Below are positions 5,792-32,573 of a stretch of DNA of 39,382 nt, in pieces; positions within the stretch are counted from its first letter, which is position 1; each line of letters starts with the position of its first letter. A program made the position numbers and the translations under genes. The notes under the pieces are model-generated. The model ran no database searches. It saw only the letters and a program-made list of their open reading frames with translations, and was not told the origin of the DNA. Source of the stretch: a virus (taxonomy: Duplodnaviria > Heunggongvirae > Uroviricota > Caudoviricetes); IMG/VR virus record IMGVR_UViG_2923296884_000001; one strand, 5' to 3'.

Positions 5792-8585
5792 CATCCGGGT
5801 CGCTTTCAGCGCCGTTGACAGGCTGACCCGGCCTGCCGAAAACGCCCGCCGCCTGATGGGGCAGTTTGGTGACTCCATCCAGCGAACGCAGGGGGCGATC
5901 AAAAATCTCGAGCGTCAGGCGCGTTCATTTGAGCGCGCCCGTGACGCTGTCAGTAAAGCGGATGCGGGTATCGTGAAAGCACGACGCCAGCTTAACGCCC
6001 TTAATCAGTTACAACGCACGGGTACAGTGCTCAGCGAAAAACAACAAAAGCTGATGCAGCAGTTAAGCACCCGGCTTGAACGCCTGAATGAATCGCGCAC
6101 ACGGGAAATTCAGAAAATGCGGGAACTTGGCGGAGAGCTGAAACGCCACGGCATTTCCCTGACAGGCAGCGATAACACCATCCAGCAGGCCATCAGACGC
6201 ACCGAACAGTACAACAACCAGCTTGAACGCGAACGGCAGGCGCTTGCGCGTGTAACGCGGGCGCGTGAGCGGTATTCGCGCGCGCAGGAAACCGCGGGAA
6301 AACTGAAAACAGGTGGTGCGCTGGCAATTGGTGCTGCAGCGGCTGGCGGCTATGCTGCCGGGCGTTTTTTGCAGCCTGCGATCGGGTTCGGCAAAGAGAT
6401 GTCCCGCGTTCAGGCACTGACGCGAATCGACAAAAACAGCCCGCAGTTTAAGGCGCTGCGTGAGCAGGCGTTAAAACTTGGTTCTGAAACACAGTTTACT
6501 GCGAGTGATGCCGCCAGTGGGCAGAGCTTTCTGGCAATGGCTGGTTTTACTCCGCAGGCCATTCAGGCCGCATTGCCCGGTGTTCTTAATATGGCGCTGG
6601 CAGGTGGCGTCGAACTCGGCGAGACGGCTGATATAGGCTCCAATATCCTCACACAGTTCAACCTGACAGCCGATCAAATGGACCGGGTTGGCGATACGCT
6701 GACAGCAGCATTCACCCGGACCAATACTGATTTACGCGCGCTGGGCGAAACCATGAAGTATACCGGTCCGGTTGCCGCAAAACTTGGTATCAGTCTTGAA
6801 GAAGCGGCGGCCATGGCCGGGATGCTTGCCAATAATGGTCTTCGCGGAAGCGATGCTGGTACGGCCATGCGCGCAAGTCTGTCCCGCCTTGCATCACCGC
6901 CAAAAGCTGCGGCTGATGCACTGAAAGAGCTGGGGGTGTCAGTTGCTGACGCCAGAGGCAAAATGCGCCCGATGGAGGATGTGCTGCTTGATCTCTATAA
7001 GGCGACACAAAAATACGGACAGGTGGACCAGGTTTCCTTCTTCAAGGACATCGCCGGAGAAGAGGCGTTCGTTGGTTTACAGACGCTTGTTGCGGCGGCT
7101 GGTTCAGGAGAGCTGCAAAAACTGACCAGAGAATTGCAGGGGGCAAGGGGAGAGGCCGATCGCGTTGCAAAAGTAATGGCCGATAATCTTGATGGGGACC
7201 TGAAAAATCTCGACAGCGCATGGGAAGGTCTTCGTATTCGCATCAGTGATCTGGTTGACGGTCCGCTGCGTTCTGTCACGCAGTGGCTCACGCGGGTGCT
7301 TGAAAAAATCACCTCGCTGGCGCAGGCCCATCCGGTACTGACGCGCCAGCTACTGATAGCAGGCGGTGCGTTGCTGGCAATGACTGCAACGATTGGCTCG
7401 TTGTCGCTGGTTATTGGGGTGCTTTACGGAAAGCTGGCCACCCTGCGTCTTGGTTTTGACATTCTTACCCGGTCAATGAATGTCGTCCGGGTGTTGCCTG
7501 CGCTGTGGGGAATGCTGACGGGTTCTGTTTCTTTGCTGGGAGGCGCTATCGGGGCGCTGTTCAGTCCGGTTGGATTGATTGCTGCTGCGTTTGTGGCTGC
7601 GGCGGTTCTCATCTGGAAATACTGGGAACCCATTAAGGCGTTTTATGCCGGGGTGTTCAACGGGATTATGGAAAGGCTGACCCCGTTGCGCGAAACCTTT
7701 GAACGGTTTGGTCCTGTTTTTGACGCAATCGGAAGCGGGATCAGCCAGGTGTTTAACTGGTTTAAATCGCTGCTGTCACCGATGGAGTCCAGCAAGGAAA
7801 CGCTGGATAAATGTACCAGTGCTGGCGAGATATTCGGTAACGTTCTTGGTGGCGCGTTACAGCTTGTTCTGACGCCTGCAAAAATGTTGCTGGATACGCT
7901 GGCGTGGATACTTGAAAAACTCGGTGTTCTTCCGGATGAAGCGGAAAGGGCGAGAAAGAAAATCGAAGACGCACAGCGTGCGGCCATTCTTCAGGACAAG
8001 GTTACCTTGCTTCAGGGGGACCTGGCGAAAATCAATCCGCCGAAGCCTGTGGAAAATGGCAATGGCACCGGAGGTGATAACCCCAAAGACAATAAACCGC
8101 TCACAGACAGCAATACCGGGACGCTGCGCAGACTCAGCAAAATTGCTGATAACACAGGTAAGCTGGTTGAGGAGACGAAAAAACGCATTGGCCCCGGCGA
8201 TATTGTCTTTAAAAACCTGCCCCGAGCACTTGCTGTTCGTGGGGAGTGGCAGGAGCGGAAGATTGCGCAGGTCAGTAAGCCTGCCCCCGCAATTAATATC
8301 ACACCCGTGGTCCCGGCTCCGCTGCCTCCGGCGCTGGTCCCTGTTGTTGCGGCCAGCTCCCGCCCGGTGGCGGAGGCCATACGATCTCCAGTGGCATCAG
8401 TTCCTGTAACTTCCCGTAACCGGGAGCCTGTTGCCTCCGGATTTGGTGGTGAAATTCATGTTCATCTGCATAACGTTGTTACGCAGAATCCCCGCGAACT
8501 GGCGAAACTGGTCGGTGAAATGGTCAGGGCAGAAATGGAACGGCGTGCCCGTGCCGGGCGTGGCAGTTTTTACGATAAAGATTGA
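5769..8585 (+). CDS. T: tail tape-measure protein
   Basis: About 940-aa ORF with coiled-coil N-terminal half, Gly/Ala-rich hydrophobic segments and a Pro-rich C-terminus, in the P2 gpT position; start (5742, 5769 or 5778) overlaps E'. Confidence 0.9.
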   Translation: MQIMKTLDIRVAFSAVDRLTRPAENARRLMGQFGDSIQRTQGAIKNLERQARSFERARDAVSKADAGIVKARRQLNALNQLQRTGTVLSEKQQKLMQQLSTRLERLNESRTREIQKMRELGGELKRHGISLTGSDNTIQQAIRRTEQYNNQLERERQALARVTRARERYSRAQETAGKLKTGGALAIGAAAAGGYAAGRFLQPAIGFGKEMSRVQALTRIDKNSPQFKALREQALKLGSETQFTASDAASGQSFLAMAGFTPQAIQAALPGVLNMALAGGVELGETADIGSNILTQFNLTADQMDRVGDTLTAAFTRTNTDLRALGETMKYTGPVAAKLGISLEEAAAMAGMLANNGLRGSDAGTAMRASLSRLASPPKAAADALKELGVSVADARGKMRPMEDVLLDLYKATQKYGQVDQVSFFKDIAGEEAFVGLQTLVAAAGSGELQKLTRELQGARGEADRVAKVMADNLDGDLKNLDSAWEGLRIRISDLVDGPLRSVTQWLTRVLEKITSLAQAHPVLTRQLLIAGGALLAMTATIGSLSLVIGVLYGKLATLRLGFDILTRSMNVVRVLPALWGMLTGSVSLLGGAIGALFSPVGLIAAAFVAAAVLIWKYWEPIKAFYAGVFNGIMERLTPLRETFERFGPVFDAIGSGISQVFNWFKSLLSPMESSKETLDKCTSAGEIFGNVLGGALQLVLTPAKMLLDTLAWILEKLGVLPDEAERARKKIEDAQRAAILQDKVTLLQGDLAKINPPKPVENGNGTGGDNPKDNKPLTDSNTGTLRRLSKIADNTGKLVEETKKRIGPGDIVFKNLPRALAVRGEWQERKIAQVSKPAPAINITPVVPAPLPPALVPVVAASSRPVAEAIRSPVASVPVTSRNREPVASGFGGEIHVHLHNVVTQNPRELAKLVGEMVRAEMERRARAGRGSFYDKD

Positions 8586-23061: not shown

Positions 23062-24813
23062 ATGATTCAGGACGCTTTTGTGCGCCAGCGTGCGCGGCAA
23101 CTTTACTGGCAGGGTTATCCGCCCGCAGAAATCTCACGTCTGATGGGAATAAACCCGAACACGATTTATGCGTGGAAAAAACGCGACCAGTGGGATGAAA
23201 CGCCACCCGTGCAGCGTGTCACGCAGTCCATCGATGCGCGCCTCATCCAGCTTACTGAAAAACAGAATAAAACAGGTGGTGACTTCAAGGAAATAGACCT
23301 GCTGACCCGGCAGCTTAAAAAACTGCATGATGGCCAGCCAGATGCGACGGCCACAGGAAAGAAAGGCCGGGCGAAAAAACTTAAAAATCATTTCACGCCG
23401 GAACAGATTGCTGCACTGCGGGAAAAAATCATCAGCAGGCTGGAGTGGCATCAGCGGGGCTGGTTTGACTCCCTGACTCTTTGCAGGGAAGCCGGGATAC
23501 GTAACAGGATGATCCTGAAATCCCGACAGATTGGGGCGACCTGGTATTTTGCACAGGAAGCACTGCTGATGGCGCTGCGTGACGATGTGGCGCAACCTTA
23601 CCAGCGTAACCAGATTTTTTTGTCTGCGTCGCGTCGTCAGGCGTTCCAGTTTAAAAGCATTATTCAGAAGGTCGCATCTGAAGTTGATGTGGAGCTGAAA
23701 GGGGGCGATAAAATCATCCTCTCCAACGGCGCAGAGCTGCATTTTCTTGGTACTTCTGCTGCGACGGCACAGTCCTACACGGGCAATTTTTATTTTGATG
23801 AATTTTTCTGGGTCAGTCGCTTTGCTGAACTGCGCAAGGTGGCTGGCGCTATGGCAACCCTCAGCGGACTGCGGCGCACCTACTTCTCCACGCCATCCAC
23901 CGAAACGCACGAGGCATACGCCTACTGGAACGGCGACCGCTGGAACGAGAAAAAGGCCTCGCATAAACGCCAGCGTTTTTCTGTGGACTGGAAAACGCTG
24001 CATAACGGGCTTATCTGCCCCGACCGGACGTGGCGGCAAATTGTCACGCTGGAAGATGTGGTTAATCACGGCTGGAAACACACCGATATTGATGAAATTC
24101 GTGATGAAAACACCGAAGACGAGTTCCTCAATCTCTATATGTGTGAGTTTGTCCGCGAAGGGGAATCGGCATTTAACCTGAATATCCTGATTGGCTGTGG
24201 TGTTGACGGATACGACGACTGGAAAGACTGGAAACCTTTTGCTCCCCGCCCGATGGGGAATCGTCCGGTATGGATTGGGTATGACGCAAACGGCAGCAGT
24301 GGAAACGGCGACAGCGGCGCTGTGTCCGTGGTGGTTCCTCCGGCTGTTCCTGGCGGCCGTTTTCGAACGGTGGAGACGCGACGCGTTCAGGGGCTGGAGT
24401 TTGAAGAACAGGCCAGAGTCATTGAAGAGTTCACGTGTCGCTACAACGTGGAACACATCGGCATTGATGTGACAGGCGGGAACGGGGAGGCTGTTTATCA
24501 GATAGTGAAACGGTTTTTCCCTGCTGCTATTCCGTACACCTTCACGCTGTCATCAAAACGGTCGCTGGTACTGAAAATGCTGCAAATAATGCGTGCCGGG
24601 CGGTGGGAATACGATCGCGCCGAACGCGAGCTGGTCGCGGCCTTTAACGCCGTGCGTAAGGTGAAAACACCGGGCGGCTTTATCACTTACGAAACGGACC
24701 GCGCGAGGGGGATCAGCCACGGCGACCTTGCGTGGGCAACCATGCTTGCTGTCATTAACGAACCAATTGGCGGCGAAGGAGAAAACGAGCGTTTCACGGT
24801 TATGGAGTTCTGA
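23062..24813 (+). CDS. P: terminase large (ATPase) subunit P
   Basis: 583-aa ORF with P2 gpP similarity. Confidence 0.95.
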   Translation: MIQDAFVRQRARQLYWQGYPPAEISRLMGINPNTIYAWKKRDQWDETPPVQRVTQSIDARLIQLTEKQNKTGGDFKEIDLLTRQLKKLHDGQPDATATGKKGRAKKLKNHFTPEQIAALREKIISRLEWHQRGWFDSLTLCREAGIRNRMILKSRQIGATWYFAQEALLMALRDDVAQPYQRNQIFLSASRRQAFQFKSIIQKVASEVDVELKGGDKIILSNGAELHFLGTSAATAQSYTGNFYFDEFFWVSRFAELRKVAGAMATLSGLRRTYFSTPSTETHEAYAYWNGDRWNEKKASHKRQRFSVDWKTLHNGLICPDRTWRQIVTLEDVVNHGWKHTDIDEIRDENTEDEFLNLYMCEFVREGESAFNLNILIGCGVDGYDDWKDWKPFAPRPMGNRPVWIGYDANGSSGNGDSGAVSVVVPPAVPGGRFRTVETRRVQGLEFEEQARVIEEFTCRYNVEHIGIDVTGGNGEAVYQIVKRFFPAAIPYTFTLSSKRSLVLKMLQIMRAGRWEYDRAERELVAAFNAVRKVKTPGGFITYETDRARGISHGDLAWATMLAVINEPIGGEGENERFTVMEF

Positions 24814-25859
24814 TGAGCAGAAAAAATAAAAAAGTGCGCATGAGTTCACGCATTGATCTCGCTGATGCGCTCAGGAAAGAATCATCGCTCAGTGCATTCA
24901 CATTTGATGGTCCTTATCGCCTGACCGGGCATGACCTGCTGGACAATATGTACTGTGCTGATAACGGGCGGTGGTATGAAACCCCGGTGGACTGGTACGG
25001 TCTGGCAAGAGCAGCCCGGCAAACGTCCTGGCATCAGTCTGCGCTTTACTTTAAGCGCAATGTATTACTCGGTTGCTACATCCCGCACCCGCTGCTTTCC
25101 CGGCAGGATTTCTCGGCGCTGGCGCTGGACTGGTTTGTGTTCGGTAACGCATTCCTTGAGCTTCGAAGCAATATGCTCGGCGAACCGCTTAAATTACGGC
25201 ACGCCCTGGCGAAATATATGCGACGCGGAAGCGATCTTGAATCATGGTGGTATGTGCAGGATGGCAAGGACGCGTTTCAGTTTCGTCCTGGCAAAGTGTG
25301 CCACCTGATGAATCCGGATATTAACCAGGAAATCTACGGCATGCCGGAATATCTTGGCGCATTACTCTCGGCCAGCCTTTCTCATTCGGCGGACATGTTC
25401 AGAAAACTGTACTACGACAACGGATCCCACGCCGGGTGCATCATCTACATCGGTGCAGCGCAGGTAAACCGCGAAAGCATGGACTCCCTGAAAGAAACGC
25501 TACAGGGGGCACGTGGTGGTGGTGCGTTTAAAAACGTGCTCATTCATGCGCCCAACGGGGGCAAAGAGGGGGTGCAAATTTTGCCGTTCCAGCAGATCAC
25601 CGCAAAAGATGAATTCATGAATGTTAAGGCGGCATCCCGTGATGATGTGCTGGCTGCGCACCGCGTTCCGCCGCAACTGATGGGGGCGATGCCGGGCGAA
25701 AAAAGTGCGTTTGGCGATGTGGAGAAGGCAGCGCGGGTTTACGCAATTAACGAGCTGATGCCCGTCATGGAGGCTATGAAGCACATCAATGACTGGCTTG
25801 GCGAAGAGGTGATCCGTTTTAACTCTTATGCTCTTCTTGATGAAAAAACAGCCCCGTGA
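24813..25859 (+). CDS. Q: portal protein Q
   Basis: 348-aa ORF with P2 gpQ similarity; start overlaps the P stop (TGATGA). Confidence 0.93.
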   Translation: MSRKNKKVRMSSRIDLADALRKESSLSAFTFDGPYRLTGHDLLDNMYCADNGRWYETPVDWYGLARAARQTSWHQSALYFKRNVLLGCYIPHPLLSRQDFSALALDWFVFGNAFLELRSNMLGEPLKLRHALAKYMRRGSDLESWWYVQDGKDAFQFRPGKVCHLMNPDINQEIYGMPEYLGALLSASLSHSADMFRKLYYDNGSHAGCIIYIGAAQVNRESMDSLKETLQGARGGGAFKNVLIHAPNGGKEGVQILPFQQITAKDEFMNVKAASRDDVLAAHRVPPQLMGAMPGEKSAFGDVEKAARVYAINELMPVMEAMKHINDWLGEEVIRFNSYALLDEKTAP

Positions 25860-25876
25860 TGGGGCTGTCCTTTTTA
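25848..25876. terminator. bidirectional rho-independent terminator between convergent Q and the 174-aa gene
   Basis: ACAGCCCC-gtgat-GGGGCTGT stem-loop with an A-run upstream and T-run downstream. Confidence 0.65.
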
Positions 25877-26398
25877 CCAGAGTTGAACCATTTTCTGGGT
25901 GCCGTCAGGCTTGAGATTATCAATTTCAGAGAGAACGTAATATTGAATGGCTTCACAAACGGTGGTGTAGGGTGAATTACCTTCTTTAAGTGGCACGATA
26001 TTATTATTAACGCGAACCTGTATTTCATCGTTATACATTGCGATCGAAACAGGCGTGTGCACGAACGCGACTTCGCCAGGTGTGTCGTCAACCACCGTTT
26101 CAATACTAAAAGTCAGTTTTCGCTCATCATTGCTGCCCCGTGCTTTGGGGGTAGCGGCAGGGATCTGGGATAAAGGCATTCTGCGAAATCCTTCGGCTGC
26201 TTCCAGTCCGCATGAAACGTAATGCTGGCGATTACCGTCGCTATCTGTCCAGGTCTGTGATGGCAGCTCCAGCGAGATTTCATAAGCATCAACAATGCCC
26301 TGGGCAAGGCGTACAAGCGGGGTCAGATCTTCATTGCGGCGAAAGCTCTCCTTTACCTGCTCCCGTTTTTCTCTTAACTGCTTGTAATTAATGACCAT
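25874..26398 (-). CDS. hypothetical protein (about 174 aa), orphan gene between Q and the early-operon terminator
   Basis: ORF 25874..26437 with start refined to the ATG about 26398 (MVINYKQLREK...) preceded by a GGAGG SD; lower GC than neighbours; no family recognised. Confidence 0.6.
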   Translation of the reverse strand: MVINYKQLREKREQVKESFRRNEDLTPLVRLAQGIVDAYEISLELPSQTWTDSDGNRQHYVSCGLEAAEGFRRMPLSQIPAATPKARGSNDERKLTFSIETVVDDTPGEVAFVHTPVSIAMYNDEIQVRVNNNIVPLKEGNSPYTTVCEAIQYYVLSEIDNLKPDGTQKMVQLW

Positions 26399-26495
26399 AA
26401 GACAGCCTCCATTGATTTCTTTGCTCGTATTTTGCACTTATGAAGTATGGTCGGCAAGGTGCCGTATCGCTGACGCGCTTCGCTTGTCTGCTGCT

Positions 26496-26524
26496 TCGCC
26501 GGGGCATAAAAAATTTATGCCCCG
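26496..26524. repeat. 29-bp perfect palindrome GCCGGGGCATAAA-aaa-TTTATGCCCCGGC
   Basis: Read directly from the sequence; lies in the ~500-bp noncoding stretch upstream of the 174-aa gene. Confidence 0.7.
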
Positions 26525-26930
26525 GCTCTCCAGCTCCTGTATCAATCAGATAATTTCACGACGCCTTCCAGTTTATCGCCACCATCGACGGTCAGACTCT
26601 TACGCAATTCCACCGCGTTGACTGCATGTTCTCGCTGCCTCAGTGCGATTTTGACGGCCTTACCTTTCACCCCATCAAATCAAAAGCCCTCACGCCTTTT
26701 TCATGCTCAGCGTGAGAAATATGGCCATTCTGTTGTGTCTCTGCGACATCGTTCAGGGAATGCTATTTACCCCCTGAAACGCGGGCTGTTCCCCCGTCAC
26801 CTGCGCGCAGAAAAAGCGCGTTTTTTTGTGCACGCACGGATCCTTGACGGATCCAGCCGCCATGCGGGCCGGAAGGGTAAAAAGTCGTTCAAAAAAATTG
26901 TGCAAATTTGTGCACTTTTGTGCAAACAAA

Positions 26931-26956
26931 AAGCGCCCCTGAGGCGCTTTAGTGTT
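26931..26956. terminator. terminator of the leftward early/accessory operon (bidirectional stem-loop)
   Basis: AAGCGCC-cctga-GGCGCTT flanked by A/T runs, about 30 bp after the last minus-strand gene; preceded by three TTGTGCA direct repeats (26899-26930). Confidence 0.6.
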
Positions 26957-26984
26957 TTATAGGTTGTGTATATTTGCTGGGTCC

Positions 26985-27248
26985 TTATCCTGCTGTGCTT
27001 TCAACTGATGAGGGGAACAAAATCTTTTCATCAAACCCTGCATTCATATCATGGACAGCAACACACCAATCCATTGACGAACGATTATCAAGAGCCTCCA
27101 TGATTTCATCCATGCGGCGTAGGTCATACAGGTAAATGCTTTTATCGCCAATGGTGTAAAAACCAATTTTTTTCGGTGATGGACAGCGATCAAGAACGTC
27201 CTGTAATTCGCTCAACCATGCTTGTTCTTTTTTTGTCAAAGTTGCCAT
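26985..27248 (-). CDS. hypothetical protein (87 aa)
   Basis: Start ATG at 27248 with strong SD GAAAGGAG; packed TGAtATG against the upstream gene. Confidence 0.6.
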   Translation of the reverse strand: MATLTKKEQAWLSELQDVLDRCPSPKKIGFYTIGDKSIYLYDLRRMDEIMEALDNRSSMDWCVAVHDMNAGFDEKILFPSSVESTAG

Positions 27249-27249
27249 A

Positions 27250-27690
27250 TCACTCTCCTTTCCCATGAAGCATAGCGGCGCGGCAGGCGTTCCATATTTC
27301 GGCAGCAATATAGCGCTCGCTATCGGTTAATTTGTACGTGGAAACATAGCCAGAGAGCATTTCTACGTTTTCCGGAGTTGCTTCTTCCGGCACTACCGGC
27401 GCTGGCAAGGCAGCGTGATAGTAGAGTGGCATAGTTTTGTACAGTGGTTCGCCAGGACTTCCGTCAGCCTGATTCCATTCTTCAACCCAGGCATCAACAA
27501 CCGCTTTGCTGGTTGATACATGTTCTTCTGAATCTACATTTTGTCCTGATATACAGAACATAACTGCCTCTGCTTCCAGCGATGCCAGAGCAATTTCATA
27601 AGCCCGACGCTCAATATTGTCTCGGACGTCCAGGCTGCCTATGCGCTCTTTGATTTCTTTAATCAGTTCTTTGTCGGTAAAAGTGGTCAT
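27250..27690 (-). CDS. hypothetical acidic protein (146 aa)
   Basis: Start ATG at 27690 (MTTFTDKEL...) with SD AAAGGAG. Confidence 0.6.
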   Translation of the reverse strand: MTTFTDKELIKEIKERIGSLDVRDNIERRAYEIALASLEAEAVMFCISGQNVDSEEHVSTSKAVVDAWVEEWNQADGSPGEPLYKTMPLYYHAALPAPVVPEEATPENVEMLSGYVSTYKLTDSERYIAAEIWNACRAAMLHGKGE

Positions 27691-27691
27691 A

Positions 27692-28006
27692 TCAATCTCC
27701 TTTGGTACCAATGTTTACAGCCTGGTAAGCCTCTTTGAGCACCCAGTCAACAGCGTCTTTCCATGCTCCGGTTTCGACTGGCGGATTCTCACGCTTTACC
27801 TGTTCATAGAAACGCACCGCTCTAACCAGTCCATCTGACGGTTTTGCCTGTAGTGCAGCCTGAGCTATGCGGTATGCCTGGAGCATACGGGCGTCGTTGA
27901 TATCCATTCCGAACGGAATTTCTGATGATTGTGACTCTGCATCTTCAAGCCTGGCAATTTCTTTACGTAAGAAGTATTTCAACTCTTGTTTCTGTTTTCT
28001 GTTCAT
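27692..28006 (-). CDS. hypothetical protein (104 aa)
   Basis: ATG at 28006 overlaps the upstream stop (ATGA). Confidence 0.6.
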
Positions 28007-28335
28007 GCGTTTTTTTCCTTTTTGTCTGTCACTTCTTTCCTGATAATTTCATTGCACAAATCCACGCACTCATTGCAGATGTAAACAGACGGTCCGGCAA
28101 TCACCTTTGTGACTTCGTACTGGGATTTATTGCAGAAGCTGCAATAAACCGTCTTCTCGCCTGAAGTCCATGTTTTGCTGGTTTCGCCAGACATCAGTTG
28201 TTTGAGGTCTTTTTCACGACGAAGAACTATCTGGCCACATTCAGCTATTTTTTGGATGTTGACATTTTCTTCTTTCGCCAGCGCTTCCATCCGCTCAATC
28301 AGTCGCTGCGCTTTTTCTCTGTCAATGTGTTGCAT
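28003..28335 (-). CDS. small protein with a C-terminal ClpX-type C4 zinc finger
   Basis: C-terminus [36 protein letters not shown] closely matches the ClpX N-terminal zinc-binding domain (CSFCGK...[15 protein letters not shown]); strong SD AAGGGGGA. Confidence 0.7.
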
Positions 28336-28398
28336 TGTGTCCCCCTTGTTTATGCTCCCGGGTTAAAGTCATCAGGGCGGATGCGCCCTGATGTTGTG

Positions 28399-28710
28399 TT
28401 ATTCGGGAAATAACGCCCGGATATTTCCGGCCATCTGACTGGTTATCTGTGCGGCTGATACTGGCTGTGACGCGGGGCGTTCTGTCCTGGTTTGTGTCAT
28501 TGATAACGCCTCATCATCAGCCCATGCAGCCAGTCGGTAAGCCTCTGCCGGATTCATTTTCAGTAGTGCCAGCCCGGCCAGAAAAGCCACGCGTTGACCA
28601 CTTTTGCGGGCTTCTGGTGTAAGGCTGTCCAGCCAGGCGCATGCTTCGCCTTCGTTCTTGACGGCGGCGGGCTTCAGATAGAAACTTATCCGTCTGGTTG
28701 GTGTCGTCAT
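28399..28710 (-). CDS. parR: ParR-like partition adaptor (103 aa)
   Basis: ATG at 28710 four nt after the parM stop, SD AAGGAG; N-terminus ISFYLKPAAVKN...VAFLAGLALL resembles plasmid R1 ParR (IAFKLNPDVN...AALTAGLALY). Confidence 0.7.
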   Translation of the reverse strand: MTTPTRRISFYLKPAAVKNEGEACAWLDSLTPEARKSGQRVAFLAGLALLKMNPAEAYRLAAWADDEALSMTQTRTERPASQPVSAAQITSQMAGNIRALFPE

Positions 28711-28714
28711 TGGT

Positions 28715-29674
28715 TTACTCCTTGTCCATTGCGTACAGCCCATTAACCAGAGCAAACTGTGGCACCCCGTCCGCGATGAAAGTCGCATTAACTCCGCAGG
28801 CTTCGCGGATAGCGGGTGCCACAATCTCTGCCCCGCCACCGACAACCATCACCCGCCCGTAACCCGAAAAACCCGCCAGCGCGCGGATCACGCGTTGTTT
28901 CAGTGTTTCTTCCTTTTCACGAATAACCGCCATCAGGCTGGCGTAATGCGCGTCATTGTGGATGTGCTGGCGCAGCCAGGCTTCATCATGGCGATGTTCG
29001 ATAATGGTATTGGCGATGTGGTGACTGGTACGCATACCGTTAGTGGCCATCACCGACAGTACGGCATCGGCCATCAGGGAAACGCCTACGTGTGGATCGC
29101 AAAACACCTGGCTGATACCTGCCAGTTGTCCCTGAACCTTTGCCACATCCAGCGTGGTTCCGCCTAAATCCACAATCAGCAGGGATTCAAACGGACTCAT
29201 GTCAGCCAGTGCCTTAAAGCCAGCCGGAATGGATTCAGGCATAACCCGCACGTTACGGATAGTGAATGCTTCGCCGTTCTGGTACTCCACCGGGCGCATA
29301 ACGTTCGCTTTTTTGCGGTTGATGTTGGCCATGTCCGGCTGTGCGTTTGTGTCGAAATACTCGCTCAGTGGCAGGGTGACAACCACATCCACCTCCTGTG
29401 GCGTGATGCCTGATTTGACCAGCGCGTGATGAATGGCGATTACATTCACATCGCTGTACTGGTATTGCGTGTCGGTCGTCTGGACAAAGCGATCGCTAAC
29501 CGGATCAAAACCATAGCGCACGCCATCAAGCATGTAGTTCGCGGGCTGCATGCCACCGAACGGCGCAGACCATTCCGACTTGAAGCTGTTCGGGCTGATG
29601 GCGTTGCGGCGTTCGCCATTCTCAGTCCATGCCAGCTTGATGTTGGTGGAGCCGTCGTCGATACAAATTTTCAT
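28715..29674 (-). CDS. parM: ParM/StbA actin-like segregation ATPase
   Basis: 319 aa; MKICIDDGSTNIKLAW... with full-length similarity to plasmid R1 ParM (phosphate-1 motif DDGSTNIKL, VMPESIPAG, LIVDLGGTTLD, VVGGGAE). Confidence 0.9.
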   Translation of the reverse strand: MKICIDDGSTNIKLAWTENGERRNAISPNSFKSEWSAPFGGMQPANYMLDGVRYGFDPVSDRFVQTTDTQYQYSDVNVIAIHHALVKSGITPQEVDVVVTLPLSEYFDTNAQPDMANINRKKANVMRPVEYQNGEAFTIRNVRVMPESIPAGFKALADMSPFESLLIVDLGGTTLDVAKVQGQLAGISQVFCDPHVGVSLMADAVLSVMATNGMRTSHHIANTIIEHRHDEAWLRQHIHNDAHYASLMAVIREKEETLKQRVIRALAGFSGYGRVMVVGGGAEIVAPAIREACGVNATFIADGVPQFALVNGLYAMDKE

Positions 29675-29705
29675 GTCGCTTTTCCTTATGTTGATTAATT
29701 AATCG

Positions 29706-29816
29706 TTTACGGGATTCTGAAATCCCGTTTTTGCCTGTTTTGTGTGCGCTTCATATATCGCGGCGCGTTTTTTGCTCATTTACGGGATTTGTGAATCCCG
29801 TTTCTGTCTGTTTTTT
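29706..29816. repeat. two ~39-bp direct repeats, each with an ACGGGATT-nnnn-AATCCCGT palindrome; parC-like centromere or replication origin candidate
   Basis: Copies at 29706-29744 (in the A-parM gap) and 29779-29816 (within the last codons of A), 73 bp apart. Confidence 0.7.
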
Positions 29817-32573
29817 GTTTCCACTGGTCAGGCCACCCCGCAGCAGGTCTGCTTTGCGGCGGGCACGTTCAGTGGTTTCACTGATTCTCTGTGCGTGCTC
29901 TGCGTCGCGGATGGCGCGCAGCATGTCAGAAAGCACGGTAACGGGGGGGGTCATGGTGTTCTGGTCCTGCTGAAGTGTGGATGCCAGACGTGCGGCGGCT
30001 TCGGGGTCTGATGCCCCCAGCTGTTCCAGATAGCTGGCGACCGGGTTATGGCGGATCTCCGTGCTGCTTACGCCGTGATTACGGCTCAGGCGCTGCCAGA
30101 GCTGCGTGATTCGGCTGTCCGGGCGGGTATCCGGTTTGCGTACAATTTCAAATCCCTGCGGTGCAATGATGCTGCCGTCAACGTACAGGCTGCCGCCCCG
30201 TAACAGGTGCTGCATCTGCTGTTCACCGATATGCAGGCCGAGAGATTCGGCAGATTCCCGCCATTCTTTAGCGAGTAATTCGTGGTTATCAGGCAAAGGC
30301 CGCTGCTGTTTGCGGCTCTGTGTCCAGCTCTGCATTTCATCACTGCTGTTTTTTGCCTGTTTGTCACGCAGCGAACGCATCAGCGCCCGGCGTTCGTGCC
30401 GTTTCAGTGAGCGCATCCATTCGTTCACGTCAACGCCGTCAGGAAGCTGCGGCCACGGTGCTGGCCGTTCTTCCGGCTGTTCTGTCCCGTTGTTGTCCGT
30501 TTCCTGTACACGGGGACAGTTATTGCCACGAGTCCAAGGGGCGGCAGGGCCGCCCTGAAGGTCAAAACCATTTTCGCGGGCGCTGTCTTCCGCTTCCGGT
30601 TTACGTCTTACCAGCTTCCAGTTATCCGGATGCGTGCACACACGGGAGGATTCCCCGATGAGTGGTGACCAGATCCCGTAAATCTGTACGCTCTGTTCGC
30701 CGTAATCGTTCAGCTCATCTGCGAGGTCGTAGGCGGTGCGAATCAGGTAGTCTTTGCGTGGAACAAGTACGCCGCCCTGTTTTTCAATGTAGGTGGCAAA
30801 ACACCCGGCATCGGCGGCAGCGAGTACCGCATCCATTGCGTCATCTTTCAGTCGTTGCGGGCCTTCCGGGTTGCGTGCCATCTGGCTGGCAAGGCGGCGC
30901 AGTTCACGCCACACCTGACGGGAGGGGATGCCAAAGAACTGGAACTGGCGGACCCGATGAAGGCGCGCCCAGCCGATGGCGCGCTCCACACTCTCGGCCA
31001 TTGATTTTCCGGTTTCGTGGTCAACGCGTGGCTTGCCCGTTTTCGGGTCGATGCCATCCACGGCGCGGCTGTCCAGGTTCTTTCCGATGTAGGTCGCGAT
31101 ATAGCTGGTTGGTGTGCCTTTTGAGCCGTCGACATACTCCGCCTTAAAGCGCGGAGTAATATCATTGCCCAGCTCGTGGCGGTCTTCCTGAATGGCAATA
31201 TCGCGGGTATGGGACACAATGGTGTCGATTTCTTCCGGATGAGCAAAGACCATCATATGCCAGTGCACGGTGCCGTCATGGTGAGGCTCCACCGTGCGGA
31301 TGCCATACCAGCGAAGACCGTCGCGGTTCAGTTTTTTGCGGACCGCCGCAAAAAACGTGTTAACCAGGTAATAGCTGGAGTCGCGCATGGTGGCCCCGTT
31401 CCATTTGGGATTCGGATGACCGTTCTCTGTTGTGGCGTGGTATTTTGACGGGCAGGTGACAGTCAGAAACACCGCTTTGTCGCCACGGGCTTCGGCCAGA
31501 AGTTCCAGCCCCTTCATGGTGGCCATCATTTCTGCCTTACGGTGAACCGGGTTACTTACTCCCGCGTAATACACTGTCTCGAGATCAATCGTGAACCCGT
31601 CTTCGTTTTCCAGCATGAAACTTTTCAGGAAATCGCGTGTTTTCTCGCGCTGTGCGCGAAACTCGCTTAACGCGTCCTGGCTCAGATAGGGTGATGTTTT
31701 TCTGGAAACCAGACAGGCGGCGCGGAGTTGTTCTTCTCTCCACTCGCAACGTAACAGCCACAGTTTGCGTTTCCACCATTCCGCACAGGTCAGGCGAAGG
31801 ACTGCGCCCGGCAGCAGCTCCGTGTCCGGTTCGTTCCTCCGGTTTTTATCTGTTGTCAGTGCGTCATAATGTGGAGGCATGATGTGCAGGTGTAACGCCA
31901 TGCGGGCCAGCATCTGATACGCCTTCAGCGTTACATCCATGGTCAGCTCGCCATCTCTGGCACCAAAGCCATCACAGAGTTTTTCGAAGGTGCTGCTGAA
32001 CATCGCCGCCGTCATGGTGGCCAGCGTCTGTATCTGGTGTTTGTTGAGCTGCGGCAGGTAAAGCAAATCGTCCAGGCGTTCGCGTCCGGCAAGGGAGCGA
32101 TAACCCGGTGTCAGCCAGTGTCCGTCAGTGCGATCCAGACGTTCGAATATTTTGCGCAGGGTTCCGCGTGCATAGCGTTCCGCCTGCCAGCTCTTTTTGC
32201 CTTTCCGGCGATCGGCTTCCTGTTTTTTGCGCAGGAAGGAGAGGTGGCGAATAAGCGGATCGCGCAGATAGGACGGCAGCAGGCGCAGCGAGGCCATGGC
32301 TTCATCCACCGCGCCACGTGCCTGTTTTCTGGCTTCTCTGGCCAGTGTGATGGTTTTGTCCTGTTTTTCCTGTGCGTCCAGGCTTTTATTAATCAGGTTG
32401 CCCAGCGGCGTGGCGGAGAACGCCGCATCAGCCATTTCCTGGCGGCGCTCGTTCTCTGCCCGGTAGGCATCCAGCCAGGAGGAAAGCTCGGATTCAGGAG
32501 CGGGGATTCCCGTTCCTTCACGACCCACTGCGTGGCGCGGTTGTTGCCAGTCCCTGATGTACTCTGCCGTCAT
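29751..32573 (-). CDS. A: replication initiation protein A (rolling-circle endonuclease)
   Basis: 940-aa ORF with P2 gpA-type features; longer than P2 gpA (761 aa). Confidence 0.92.
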   Translation of the reverse strand: MTAEYIRDWQQPRHAVGREGTGIPAPESELSSWLDAYRAENERRQEMADAAFSATPLGNLINKSLDAQEKQDKTITLAREARKQARGAVDEAMASLRLLPSYLRDPLIRHLSFLRKKQEADRRKGKKSWQAERYARGTLRKIFERLDRTDGHWLTPGYRSLAGRERLDDLLYLPQLNKHQIQTLATMTAAMFSSTFEKLCDGFGARDGELTMDVTLKAYQMLARMALHLHIMPPHYDALTTDKNRRNEPDTELLPGAVLRLTCAEWWKRKLWLLRCEWREEQLRAACLVSRKTSPYLSQDALSEFRAQREKTRDFLKSFMLENEDGFTIDLETVYYAGVSNPVHRKAEMMATMKGLELLAEARGDKAVFLTVTCPSKYHATTENGHPNPKWNGATMRDSSYYLVNTFFAAVRKKLNRDGLRWYGIRTVEPHHDGTVHWHMMVFAHPEEIDTIVSHTRDIAIQEDRHELGNDITPRFKAEYVDGSKGTPTSYIATYIGKNLDSRAVDGIDPKTGKPRVDHETGKSMAESVERAIGWARLHRVRQFQFFGIPSRQVWRELRRLASQMARNPEGPQRLKDDAMDAVLAAADAGCFATYIEKQGGVLVPRKDYLIRTAYDLADELNDYGEQSVQIYGIWSPLIGESSRVCTHPDNWKLVRRKPEAEDSARENGFDLQGGPAAPWTRGNNCPRVQETDNNGTEQPEERPAPWPQLPDGVDVNEWMRSLKRHERRALMRSLRDKQAKNSSDEMQSWTQSRKQQRPLPDNHELLAKEWRESAESLGLHIGEQQMQHLLRGGSLYVDGSIIAPQGFEIVRKPDTRPDSRITQLWQRLSRNHGVSSTEIRHNPVASYLEQLGASDPEAAARLASTLQQDQNTMTPPVTVLSDMLRAIRDAEHAQRISETTERARRKADLLRGGLTSGNKKQTETGFTNPVNEQKTRRDI

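What the first reader, a model, noticed from the sequence alone, without database searches (positions are those of the whole stretch)
29706..29816. Two 39-bp hairpin repeats straddling the stop codon of gene A
Both copies contain the palindrome ACGGGATT-nnnn-AATCCCGT followed by a T-run on the plus strand, yet every neighbouring gene is on the minus strand, so they are not ordinary terminators for those genes. One copy sits inside the last codons of A and the other in the A-parM gap. They could be ParR-binding centromere repeats, the A-dependent origin, or a plus-strand antisense terminator.
Basis: seen in the sequence. Interest (0 to 1): 0.45.

Follow-up and report, generated by a model that had tools for sequence, protein, structure and literature searches.

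The report
Probable centromere of prophage parMR cassette
The two hairpin-forming repeats are most likely parC, the DNA "handle" that this P2-like prophage's own actin-type partition proteins (ParR and ParM) bind; this is a known kind of element, but this one is unstudied, unusually palindromic, and sits in an integrated phage found in about a quarter of complete E. coli genomes.

Summary
Two 43-nt direct repeats (29703-29745 and 29776-29818, 81% identical, 73 nt apart) each hold a perfect 8+4+8 palindrome, ACGGGATT-N4-AATCCCGT. Only these two copies occur in the window.

The window is a P88-like (Xuanwuvirus, P2-like) phage. The repeats lie directly upstream of parM-parR, a type II partition operon.

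- **Part of the par cassette.** Mosaic relatives with three different upstream contexts all regain homology at window 29815-29818, the outer edge of the distal repeat. In one of them homology ends at the parR stop codon, so the repeats belong to a 1.4-kb parC-parM-parR cassette and not to gene A.
- **Not the origin.** The P2-type origin has its own homologue inside A, about 740 nt away.
- **Not a needed terminator.** Plus-strand transcription is already terminated upstream.
- **Not REP-like.** The repeat occurs about twice per genome, and only in genomes with this prophage (1301 of 5426 complete E. coli genomes).
- **Under sequence selection.** The GGGATT/AATCCC cores stay unchanged where neutral sites differ by 37%, the loops drift, and no compensatory changes occur. 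That fits a protein-binding DNA site better than an RNA structure.

Best explanation (about 0.7): a ParR-bound centromere, possibly also an operator. ParR binding is inferred, not shown. Moderate interest.

The parts
29703..29745 (-). Proximal 43-nt repeat unit of the putative parC, in the gap between A and parM
   Evidence: Direct repeat family D1. Present upstream of parM in all relatives examined.
29709..29728 (.). Proximal palindrome ACGGGATT-CTGA-AATCCCGT; proposed ParR site, perhaps bound by two RHH dimers
   Evidence: The GGGATT/AATCCC core is identical in the Hafnia lineage at 37% neutral divergence. The loop is the most variable segment (0.22 non-majority). The best but weak promoter-like -35 (TTCAGA) lies in its loop.
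29746..29775 (-). 30-bp central spacer between the repeat units; holds the last 7 sense codons and the stop codon of A (29751-29753)
   Evidence: Variable among relatives (GCGATATATGA / CATAAAACATGA / GTGAAATGTGA). No consensus sigma-70 promoter.
29776..29818 (-). Distal 43-nt repeat unit of the putative parC; overlaps the last ~22 codons of A in this window
   Evidence: Its outer edge coincides with the mosaic junctions in L010 (29815), L043 (29816) and L054 (29818).
29782..29801 (.). Distal palindrome ACGGGATT-TGTG-AATCCCGT; proposed ParR site
   Evidence: In L054 it lies outside the upstream ORF (stop TAATGA just before it). In L043 it lies behind the stop of the 159-aa upstream ORF. Its coding overlap in this window therefore looks incidental.
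29680..29687 (-). Shine-Dalgarno sequence of parM (AAGGAAAA), 5 nt before the ATG at 29674-29672
   Evidence: Read from the sequence; conserved in relatives.
28715..29674 (-). parM, actin-like partition ATPase (319 aa)
   Evidence: Pfam StbA_N 2.7e-82 and ParM C-terminal domain 1.3e-68. 93-100% amino-acid identity across lineages whose four-fold sites differ by up to 37%.
28399..28710 (-). parR (StbB family, 103 aa), ribbon-helix-helix centromere-binding adaptor
   Evidence: Pfam Plasmid_stab_B 6.2e-24. Profile hit to PDB 2JD3, the pB171 ParR/StbB, E = 0.002. N-terminal domain and C-terminal tail NIRALFPE conserved, linker hypervariable. TRRISFYLKP invariant in 133 combinations.
29751..32573 (-). 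Gene A (replication endonuclease, 940 aa). This is context, not part of the element; only its last ~22 codons overlap the distal repeat
   Evidence: Pfam Phage_GPA 1.3e-130. Other P2-like A proteins align only up to about residues 740-860.
30522..30548 (-). Homologue of the P2 ori/nick site inside A (GCCGCCCCTTGGACTCGTGGCAATAAC). Listed to show where the origin most likely is
   Evidence: The rep_origin feature of fiAA91-ss has sequence GCGCCTCGGAGTCCTGTCAAT. The protein alignment puts AAPRSPVNN against AAPWTRGNN. Window DNA.

Best explanation
The two repeats are parC, the cis-acting centromere of a self-contained type II partition cassette (parC-parM-parR, window 28398-29818) carried by this P88-like, P2-related prophage. 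Proposed mechanism (inferred): dimers of the ribbon-helix-helix protein ParR recognise the GGGATT/AATCCC half-sites. Each 20-bp palindrome would take two dimers, as a dimer of dimers. The two palindromes are 73 bp apart, about 7.0 helical turns, so they lie on the same face of an A-tract-phased and probably curved stretch of DNA. One ParR-DNA complex could therefore form across both sites, expose the conserved ParR C-terminal tails, and capture the ends of growing ParM filaments. Those filaments would push apart copies of the excised or replicating circular phage genome. The proximal site abuts the parM ribosome-binding region and overlaps the only promoter-like match, which is weak, so ParR may also repress parMR. 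That step is speculative. Shown here: the repeats, their linkage to parMR, the cassette boundaries, and sequence-level purifying selection. Inferred: ParR binding, its stoichiometry, and centromere and operator function.
For: 1. Position. The repeats lie directly upstream of parM, where type II centromeres are found (PMC5016525; PMC9426499), and they are the only substantial repeat inside the cassette.
2. Cassette membership. In mosaic relatives with three different upstream contexts, homology to the window begins at 29815 (L010), 29816 (L043, whose A protein is only 31% identical) and 29818 (L054). In L054 homology ends at 28398, one base past the parR stop.
3. Linkage. 92 of 93 viral contigs with the paired palindrome have parM next to it. 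The one exception and one other contig are internal deletions of parMR.
4. The system looks functional. ParM keeps 93-100% amino-acid identity while four-fold sites differ by up to 37%. ParR keeps its RHH domain and C-terminal tail. A working ParMR needs a cis site.
5. Selection on sequence. In the Hafnia lineage, which was found through ParR and not through the motif, all 24 core positions are identical at 37% neutral divergence (0.63^24 = 1.4e-5). The loops are 50% identical and the outer stem pairs are broken without compensation.
6. No RNA covariation. There is no compensatory pair change in 95 distinct sequences.
7. Geometry. Spacing is 73 nt in 235 of 247 occurrences, and AA dinucleotides are phased at 10.5 bp (p about 0.0015).
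8. Precedent. ParR is homologous to pB171 ParR (PDB 2JD3). A pB171-type locus has two spaced repeats, CTCA(A/G)ATTGAGTATT, 41 bp apart, each a small dyad, directly upstream of parM. The literature says pB171 ParR binds two 10-bp repeats upstream of parM.
Against: No binding data exist; the link to ParR rests on linkage, position and elimination. Every characterised ParR is reported to bind direct repeats, usually tandem 10-20 bp iterons (PMC9426499). No tandem array is detectable here, and plasmid relatives show classic iterons, not long palindromes. No ParR-site co-variation could be seen, because both the ParR beta-strand and the site core are nearly invariant. In a motif-unbiased sample only 80 of 153 loci keep both 6+4+6 cores exact, so single mismatches are tolerated or some copies are decaying. 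No convincing internal promoter was found (best 8/12), unlike R1 parC. Nearly all copies are chromosomally integrated (2292 of 2295 places), so what the system partitions is unclear.
Confidence: 0.7

Rival explanations
1. RNA stem-loops in the sense (minus-strand) polycistronic A-parM-parR transcript. One would sit at the 3' end of the A message and one at the 5' end of parM. They would act as processing or stability elements, or modulate parM translation.
For: Both units fold into -10.7 and -11.0 kcal/mol hairpins on the minus strand, with z-scores of -4.4 and -4.6. No strong internal promoter was found, so parMR is probably co-transcribed with A. The commonest proximal variants (pair 1 A-T to G-T, pair 3 G-C to G-T) remain wobble pairs on this strand.
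Against: There are no compensatory changes in 95 distinct sequences. 29 of 95 have a C.A mismatch at distal pair 7 on this strand. In Hafnia the outer pairs are broken while the core sequence itself stays fixed at 37% neutral divergence. Both copies share identical arm sequences, which structure alone does not require. No Rfam family matches. This role would not explain the fixed 73-nt spacing.
Confidence: 0.12
2. Plus-strand intrinsic terminators that shield A and the early operon from antisense transcription arriving from the parMR side.
For: Both score as terminator-like on the plus strand only: an 8-bp stem with 4 G-C pairs, a 4-nt loop and a T-rich tail. Fold energies are -10.4 and -10.2 kcal/mol. 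Two in tandem would reinforce each other.
Against: No plus-strand gene or consensus promoter lies upstream for about 2 kb. Late terminase-to-portal transcription meets stronger terminator-like hairpins at 25848-25868, 26803, 26930 and 28370 first. The distal tail is only TTTCTG. In 44 of 95 distinct relatives the proximal T-run is interrupted right at the stem (AAAGCGGG in parM orientation), and 21 of 95 have an A.C mismatch at proximal pair 3 on this strand. The stems are weak for terminators. This role would not explain why the repeats always travel with parMR at the cassette edge.
Confidence: 0.07
3. Binding sites for some other phage or host DNA-binding protein, for example a regulator of the early-to-late switch, rather than for ParR.
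For: The conservation pattern (fixed half-sites, free 4-nt spacer) fits any dimeric DNA-binding protein. ParR binding is not demonstrated.
Against: The minimal cassette that moves between contexts carries only parM and parR (L054). The palindrome occurs nowhere else in the 39-kb phage even with 3 mismatches. It is absent from E. coli genomes that lack this prophage.
Confidence: 0.06
4. Part of the A-dependent rolling-circle origin, or a secondary Rep recognition or termination site.
For: The repeats are close to the 3' end of gene A, and in P2 the origin lies within the 3' part of A.
Against: The P2 nick-site homologue is at window ~30522-30548, about 740 nt away, at the aligned position of the A protein. 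Identical repeats accompany an A protein of only 31% identity in L043 and a different upstream ORF in L010 and L054. Other P2-like A proteins do not align with the C-terminal part of this A that overlaps the distal repeat.
Confidence: 0.02
5. A REP-like dispersed element, transposon end or recombination scar unrelated to the function of the locus.
For: The repeats are palindromic and sit exactly at a mosaic junction. One locus (L144) lost exactly one unit, apparently by repeat-to-repeat recombination.
Against: There are only 2 copies in the window. In 5426 complete E. coli genomes the repeat is found in 1301, with a median of 2 places and a maximum of 6 per genome; the four hit contexts inspected in the phage, plasmid and E. 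coli collections are all next to parM. No matching element lies at the other cassette end. The cores are under purifying selection.
Confidence: 0.03

Closest known systems
parC of plasmid pB171 par1 (ParR/StbB, PDB 2JD3)
   Same: ParR is a detectable homologue (profile E = 0.002 over the RHH domain). In a pB171-type locus two spaced copies of one repeat lie directly upstream of the parM RBS, and each copy has internal dyad symmetry (CTCAA.A.TTGAG). The literature states that pB171 ParR binds two 10-bp repeats upstream of parM (PMC9426499).
   Different: The units here are 43 nt with 8-bp arms and a 4-nt spacer, against about 15 nt with 4-5-bp arms. Spacing is 73 bp against 41 bp. The sequences are unrelated. 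The host replicon is an integrated P2-like phage. That the pB171 repeats I see are the mapped ParR sites is my inference; the primary paper was not available.
parC of plasmid R1/R100 (parMRC prototype)
   Same: Same protein families (StbA/ParM and Plasmid_stab_B/ParR). Same position upstream of parM. Two blocks flank a central segment. The region is A/C-rich on the coding strand with A-tracts at roughly helical phasing.
   Different: R1 has 2 x 5 tandem 11-bp direct iterons flanking a clear -35/-10 promoter. Here there is no tandem array, no consensus promoter, and each block is dominated by a 20-bp perfect palindrome. ParM is at most 52% identical to any plasmid ParM.
srpMRC of SXT/R391 integrative conjugative elements
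   Same: A type II partition system on an element that lives integrated in the chromosome. [quoted passage not shown]
   Different: SrpR has no recognisable similarity to ParR. The element is an ICE, not a phage. The repeat sequence and layout are different.
AlpAC/alpS of Corynebacterium glutamicum prophage CGP3
   Same: A prophage-encoded actin-like protein plus a DNA-binding adaptor that binds specific sites; reported to act in viral DNA transport and replication (abstract of PMC5539076).
   Different: The proteins are unrelated at the sequence level, and the host and phage type differ. I did not compare the sites.
sopC of plasmid F and related type Ia centromeres
   Same: Short inverted repeats embedded in longer repeated units (review PMC5016525). 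From my own knowledge, the sopC units are also 43 bp.
   Different: These sites are bound by an HTH ParB-type protein (SopB) in a ParA-type (type I) system. There are 12 tandem units, downstream of the operon. The resemblance is formal only.

Membership tests
Type II (ParMRC) centromere parC | Lies in cis, immediately upstream of a parM-parR operon | tested here: met
   The repeats occupy 29703-29818 and the parM ATG is at 29674. The arrangement is the same in all relatives.
Type II (ParMRC) centromere parC | Cognate ParM (actin-like ATPase) and ParR (RHH adaptor) are present and look functional | tested here: met
   Pfam hits. PDB 2JD3 homology. ParM amino-acid identity is 93-100% against up to 37% four-fold divergence. 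The ParR RHH domain and C-terminal tail are conserved.
Type II (ParMRC) centromere parC | Repeated sequence motifs (iterons), typically tandem direct repeats of 10-20 bp | tested here: inconclusive
   There are two 43-nt direct repeats 73 nt apart, but no tandem array (TRF gives 0 rows). Each unit is dominated by an inverted repeat. A/T phasing at 10.5 bp hints at degenerate sub-iterons. Characterised ParRs bind direct repeats.
Type II (ParMRC) centromere parC | Travels with parMR as one module | tested here: met
   Mosaic junctions fall at 29815-29818 in three different upstream contexts. The L054 homology block is 29818-28398.
Type II (ParMRC) centromere parC | Specifically bound by the cognate ParR | not testable with these tools
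   Needs EMSA, footprinting or ChIP. Co-variation analysis was uninformative because the ParR beta-strand and the site core are both invariant.
Type II (ParMRC) centromere parC | Confers ParMR-dependent plasmid stabilisation and incompatibility in cis | not testable with these tools
   Needs a genetic assay.
Type II (ParMRC) centromere parC | Contains or overlaps the autoregulated par promoter (true of R1, not required of all) | tested here: inconclusive
   No site passes the consensus scan. The best lenient match is 8/12, TTCAGA-16-ATTAAT, overlapping the proximal palindrome, and it is exactly conserved in only 41% of distinct sequences.
Rho-independent (intrinsic) terminator | G+C-rich stem-loop followed directly by a U-tract on the transcribed strand | tested here: inconclusive
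   Met formally on the plus strand, but only 4 G-C pairs and about -10 kcal/mol. The distal tail is UUUCUG. The proximal U-tract is interrupted at the stem in 44 of 95 distinct relatives. Not met on the minus strand, where the tails are UAAAUGA and UAAACGA.
Rho-independent (intrinsic) terminator | Located at the 3' end of a transcription unit on that strand | tested here: not met
   There is no plus-strand gene upstream. The portal gene ends at 25859 with its own terminator-like hairpin, and three more lie in between.
P2/186-type origin of replication (A nick site) | Sequence homologous to the P2 nick site at the corresponding position within gene A | tested here: not met
   The homologue is at window ~30522-30548, not at the repeats.
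P2/186-type origin of replication (A nick site) | Co-inherited with its cognate A protein | tested here: not met
   The same repeats lie next to a 31%-identical A in L043 and next to a different ORF in L010 and L054.
REP/BIME-like dispersed palindromic elements | Many copies dispersed in intergenic regions of the host genome, independent of one locus | tested here: not met
   There are 2 copies in the window. In E. coli the median is 2 and the maximum 6 places per genome, only in the 24% of genomes that match. The E. coli hit inspected is next to parM.

The most novel reading that the evidence does not exclude
This would be a dyad-symmetric, two-site type II centromere. ParR, an RHH protein of the R1/pB171 family, would bind as a dimer of dimers to each of two 20-bp perfect palindromes held 7 helical turns apart, instead of coating an array of tandem direct iterons. 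The whole 1.4-kb parC-parM-parR cassette would be a mobile module of integrated P2-like prophages present in about a quarter of complete E. coli genomes. There it would act on the excised or replicating phage circle, for segregation, positioning or transient plasmid-like carriage, rather than on a plasmid. That would be the first inverted-repeat ParR site and a widespread chromosomal reservoir of an actin-based DNA-moving machine whose role in the phage life cycle is unknown.
Probability: 0.35. Interest if true: 0.55.

Novelty: new member of a known kind. Interest (0 to 1): 0.35.

Why it matters
If correct, this defines the cis site of an unstudied ParMRC lineage that is confined to P88-like prophages (closest plasmid ParM at most 52% identical). 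It gives exact boundaries for a 1.4-kb portable partition cassette. It offers a simple two-palindrome substrate for asking how an RHH ParR builds a filament-capturing complex without an iteron array. It also raises a biological question that is directly testable: why does an integrating, rolling-circle P2-like phage carried by about 24% of complete E. coli genomes keep an actin-like segregation machine under purifying selection? For annotation, it warns that these hairpins should not be called terminators, origins or REP elements.

Tried and rejected
- **Intermediate parMR relatives on plasmids.** I looked for them to test whether site and ParR co-vary. None exist in PLSDB. ParM identity drops from over 95% to at most 52%, and the DNA is found only in P88-like elements.
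- **Closest plasmid ParR by N-terminal domain.** The only non-P88-looking hit, a Shigella boydii plasmid, turned out to be an IS-disrupted remnant of the same cassette.
- **Divergent ParR homologues (down to 41% identity) as a co-variation test.** Uninformative, because the divergence sits in the linker and the RHH domain is conserved.
- **ParR N-terminal alleles against palindrome variants in 133 combinations.** No association.
- **Covariation support for an RNA hairpin.** None: 0 compensatory changes.
- **Rfam.** No relevant family.
- **Tandem Repeats Finder.** No array.
- **Promoter scans, strict and lenient.** Nothing convincing.
- **R1-type iteron similarity.** AATCCCGTAAA resembles AAACCCAAAAA. 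I noted it by eye but did not pursue it statistically, because the A/C-rich composition makes it weak.
- **Literature.** I found nothing on P88/Xuanwuvirus parMR function. The primary pB171 and ParR-structure papers were not held.
- **Genome-contig scan.** Only 3 close loci, so little added diversity.

Full report
**1. The observation**

The window region 29700-29820 contains one family of two 43-nt direct repeats, at 29703-29745 and 29776-29818. They are 81% identical and 73 nt apart start to start. Each has a perfect 8-bp-arm, 4-nt-spacer palindrome, ACGGGATT-N4-AATCCCGT, at 29709-29728 and 29782-29801.

Allowing three mismatches, the palindrome occurs exactly twice in the 39,382-base window. 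The chance expectation is 0.14, and none of 100 shuffles reaches two. Between the two copies the arms are 16/16 identical, the loops 0/4 and the flanks 19/23 (Fisher p = 0.015).

**2. Context**

The window is a P88-like phage (genus Xuanwuvirus, Peduoviridae, P2-like). The 500 bases around the finding are 96-98% identical to phage P88 and its relatives.

On the minus strand lie, in order:
- gene A (29751-32573; Phage_GPA, E = 1e-130);
- parM (28715-29674; StbA_N and ParM domains, E = 1e-82 and 1e-68);
- a 103-aa StbB/ParR-family gene (28399-28710; PF10784, E = 6e-24).

The repeats therefore occupy the position where type II partition systems keep their centromere parC, namely upstream of parM (PMC5016525; PMC9426499).

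**3. Do the repeats belong to A or to parMR?**

ParR homologues from 95% down to 41% identity all sit in the same A-parM-parR arrangement, with both palindromes upstream. The low ParR identities come from a hypervariable linker (residues ~66-95). The N-terminal RHH domain and the C-terminal tail NIRALFPE are nearly invariant.

A scan of IMG/VR for the paired palindrome found 93 contigs. Of these, 92 have parM next to the palindromes.

Mosaic relatives settle the question:
- L043 has ParM and ParR 98% and 96% identical to the window, but an A protein only 31% identical. Homology to the window resumes at 29816.
- L010 has a different 153-aa ORF upstream. Homology resumes at 29815.
- L054 has a related upstream ORF with a different junction sequence. 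Homology runs from 29818 to 28398, which is from the outer edge of the distal repeat to one base past the parR stop codon.

In L054 the upstream ORF stops (TAATGA) just before the distal palindrome. In L043 the palindrome lies behind the stop of a 159-aa ORF, although a shorter ORF (6825-7046, TTG start) still reads across it. The overlap with the last ~22 codons of A in this window therefore looks incidental.

Other P2-like A proteins (Fels-2, P2, Wphi and others) align only up to about residues 740-860 of the 940.

Conclusion: both repeats form the upstream end of a 1.4-kb portable cassette, repeats plus parM plus parR. They are the only substantial repeat within it.

**4. The origin hypothesis**

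The annotated P2-type origin of phage fiAA91-ss, 'located within gene A', has the sequence GCGCCTCGGAGTCCTGTCAAT and encodes AAPRSPVNN. The A-protein alignment places it opposite AAPWTRGNN of the window's A. The window DNA there is GCCGCCCCTTGGACTCGTGGCAATAAC, at about 30522-30548 on the minus strand, clearly homologous.

The likely origin is thus about 740 nt from the repeats. The repeats also accompany unrelated A genes (section 3). The origin hypothesis is not supported.

**5. The plus-strand terminator hypothesis**

Both units score as terminator-like on the plus strand. Their folding energies are only about -10 kcal/mol, and the hairpins are equally stable on either strand.

The nearest plus-strand genes are terminase and portal (23062-25859). 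They are followed by a terminator-like hairpin at 25848-25868, and by three more at 26803, 26930 and 28370. Little transcription should reach 29700.

In relatives the T-run next to the proximal stem is often interrupted, and an internal A.C mismatch on the plus strand is common. Nor would this role explain the strict linkage to parMR.

**6. REP-like element?**

In 5426 complete E. coli genomes the 43-nt unit is found in 1301 (24%). Genomes that have it hold a median of 2 places and a maximum of 6. Of 2295 places, 2292 are chromosomal. A low-identity example in O157:H7 has the same A-parM-parR arrangement.

The element is a prophage-borne pair, not a dispersed repeat.

**7. DNA site or RNA structure?**

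A sample selected only on ParM gave 153 loci and 96 distinct upstream sequences.

- The two central G-C pairs are invariant.
- Variants are single transitions or transversions: GGGACT, AATCCT, AACCCC, CAGGATT.
- Each variant leaves a wobble pair on one strand and a mismatch on the other, with no consistent strand preference.
- There is not one compensatory double change.
- The loops are the most variable segment.
- Spacing between the cores is 73 nt in 235 of 247 occurrences.

The Hafnia lineage was found through ParR, so it is unbiased for the motif. There, four-fold degenerate sites of parM differ by 37%, yet all 24 core positions (4 x GGGATT/AATCCC) are identical (0.63^24 = 1.4e-5). The loops are 50% identical, and the outer stem pairs are broken without compensation.

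This is the signature of sequence-specific recognition of a dyad with a free central spacer. It is not the signature of a structure-only constraint. The caveat is that it rests mainly on one divergent lineage.

Only 80 of 153 loci keep both cores exact. Single mismatches are therefore tolerated, or some prophages are decaying.

**8. Who binds?**

The minimal cassette encodes only ParM and ParR. ParR is an RHH protein: its profile hits PDB 2JD3, the pB171 ParR, with E = 0.002. Its beta-strand segment TRRISFYLKP is invariant in all 133 ParR/upstream combinations examined. From general knowledge of RHH proteins, this is the base-contacting element.

Co-variation between ParR alleles and site variants was sought and not found. 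The link to ParR is therefore by position, linkage and elimination, not by demonstration.

Geometry fits a wrapped or looped partition complex. The 73-bp spacing is about 7.0 helical turns, and AA dinucleotides in the 132-bp region are phased at 10.5 bp (p about 0.0015 against mononucleotide shuffles, uncorrected for nine periods tested).

**9. Comparison with known centromeres**

- **R1/R100-type parC (L017).** It shows the classic layout: five 11-bp A/C-rich iterons, a promoter, then five more. IncL/M and IncFIA relatives have 10-11-bp direct iterons. None has long palindromes.
- **This locus.** TRF finds no tandem array, and no consensus promoter is present. The best match is 8/12, TTCAGA-16-ATTAAT, overlapping the proximal palindrome. 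parMR is probably read from the early operon through A. The operator role is speculative.
- **pB171-type locus (L264).** This is the nearest architectural match. It has two copies of CTCA(A/G)ATTGAGTATT, 41 bp apart, directly upstream of parM, and each is itself a small dyad. The literature states that pB171 ParR binds two 10-bp repeats upstream of parM, and that all characterised ParRs bind direct repeats.
[quoted passage not shown] The CGP3 prophage carries AlpAC/alpS.

I found no paper on the P88-type system.

**10. Verdict**

The repeats are real, non-random, conserved and part of the parMR cassette. The best explanation is that they are its centromere parC, bound by ParR (confidence about 0.7). 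A possible secondary role as an operator is speculative.

Rivals: a sense-strand RNA stem-loop role (about 0.12), a plus-strand terminator (about 0.07), another DNA-binding protein (about 0.06), a REP-like element or scar (about 0.03), and the A-dependent origin (about 0.02).

I file it as a new member of a known kind, with a notable dyad-symmetric two-site layout and an unusual host replicon. Interest is moderate.

Noticed in passing
window 30522-30548 (minus strand), inside gene A: There is a clear homologue of the P2 origin/nick site: GCCGCCCCTTGGACTCGTGGCAATAAC against P2-type GCCGCGCCTCGGAGTCCTGTCAATAAC. It lies at the aligned position of the A protein (AAPWTRGNN against AAPRSPVNN). This is probably the real rolling-circle origin of this phage.
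   Followed up: partly
window 28399-28710 (parR), especially about 28420-28565: ParR has a hypervariable linker (residues ~66-95; identity among relatives falls to 41-57%) between a near-invariant RHH domain and an invariant C-terminal tail NIRALFPE. In many relatives DNA homology to the window breaks at 28565, inside parR. This suggests recurrent recombination or diversifying selection in the linker.
   Followed up: partly
E. coli complete genomes; plasmid NZ_CP148288.1: The cassette is present in 1301 of 5426 complete E. coli genomes and is almost always chromosomal. One 34,461-bp record deposited as a plasmid (E. coli from a cat) is the size of a P88-like genome and carries this locus. It may be an extrachromosomal or excised form.
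   Followed up: no
L144; L089 and L082: Natural deletion variants exist. L144 has lost exactly one repeat unit (73 bp), apparently by recombination between the two repeats. L089 has lost window 24314-29627 (parR, most of parM, and the region downstream of parR) but keeps both palindromes. L082 fuses the start of parM to the end of parR.
   Followed up: partly
L261 (u93): In this locus the parC region is 13% diverged from the window while parM four-fold sites differ by only 5.6%. The two palindromes carry changes at the same pair position but on opposite arms (GGGATT..AACCCC and GGGGTT..AATCCC). This points to a mosaic or fast-evolving centromere; its ParR helix-1 residues also differ.
   Followed up: partly
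window 28370-28393: A strong 10-bp-stem hairpin with 7 G-C pairs (CATCAGGGCGGATGCGCCCTGATG) lies immediately after the parR stop. It scores as a plus-strand terminator and probably marks the 3' end of the par operon region. It lies just outside the minimal cassette defined by L054.
   Followed up: no
window 28003-28335 (minus strand): A 110-aa ORF downstream of parR carries a ClpX-type C4 zinc-finger domain (PF06689, E = 7e-18). It is annotated 'carboxylate-amine ligase' in P88, which looks like a misannotation. Its function is unknown. It is co-inherited with the cassette in L043 but not in L054.
   Followed up: no
L003 (NZ_JBQPOM010000071.1, labelled Vagococcus sp. WN89Y): A 226-kb contig attributed to a Gram-positive Vagococcus carries this enterobacterial prophage locus at 95% DNA identity (ParM 98%). 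This is probably contamination or mislabelling of the assembly.
   Followed up: no
L010 1992-2453; L054 about 640-805; L043 6460-6939: Some relatives have extra ORFs between A and the par cassette. L010 and L054 have a 153-aa Cys-rich ORF (CRQCG...CCRCRG). L043 has an unrelated 159-aa ORF. The A/parC junction therefore appears to be a hotspot for module exchange.
   Followed up: no
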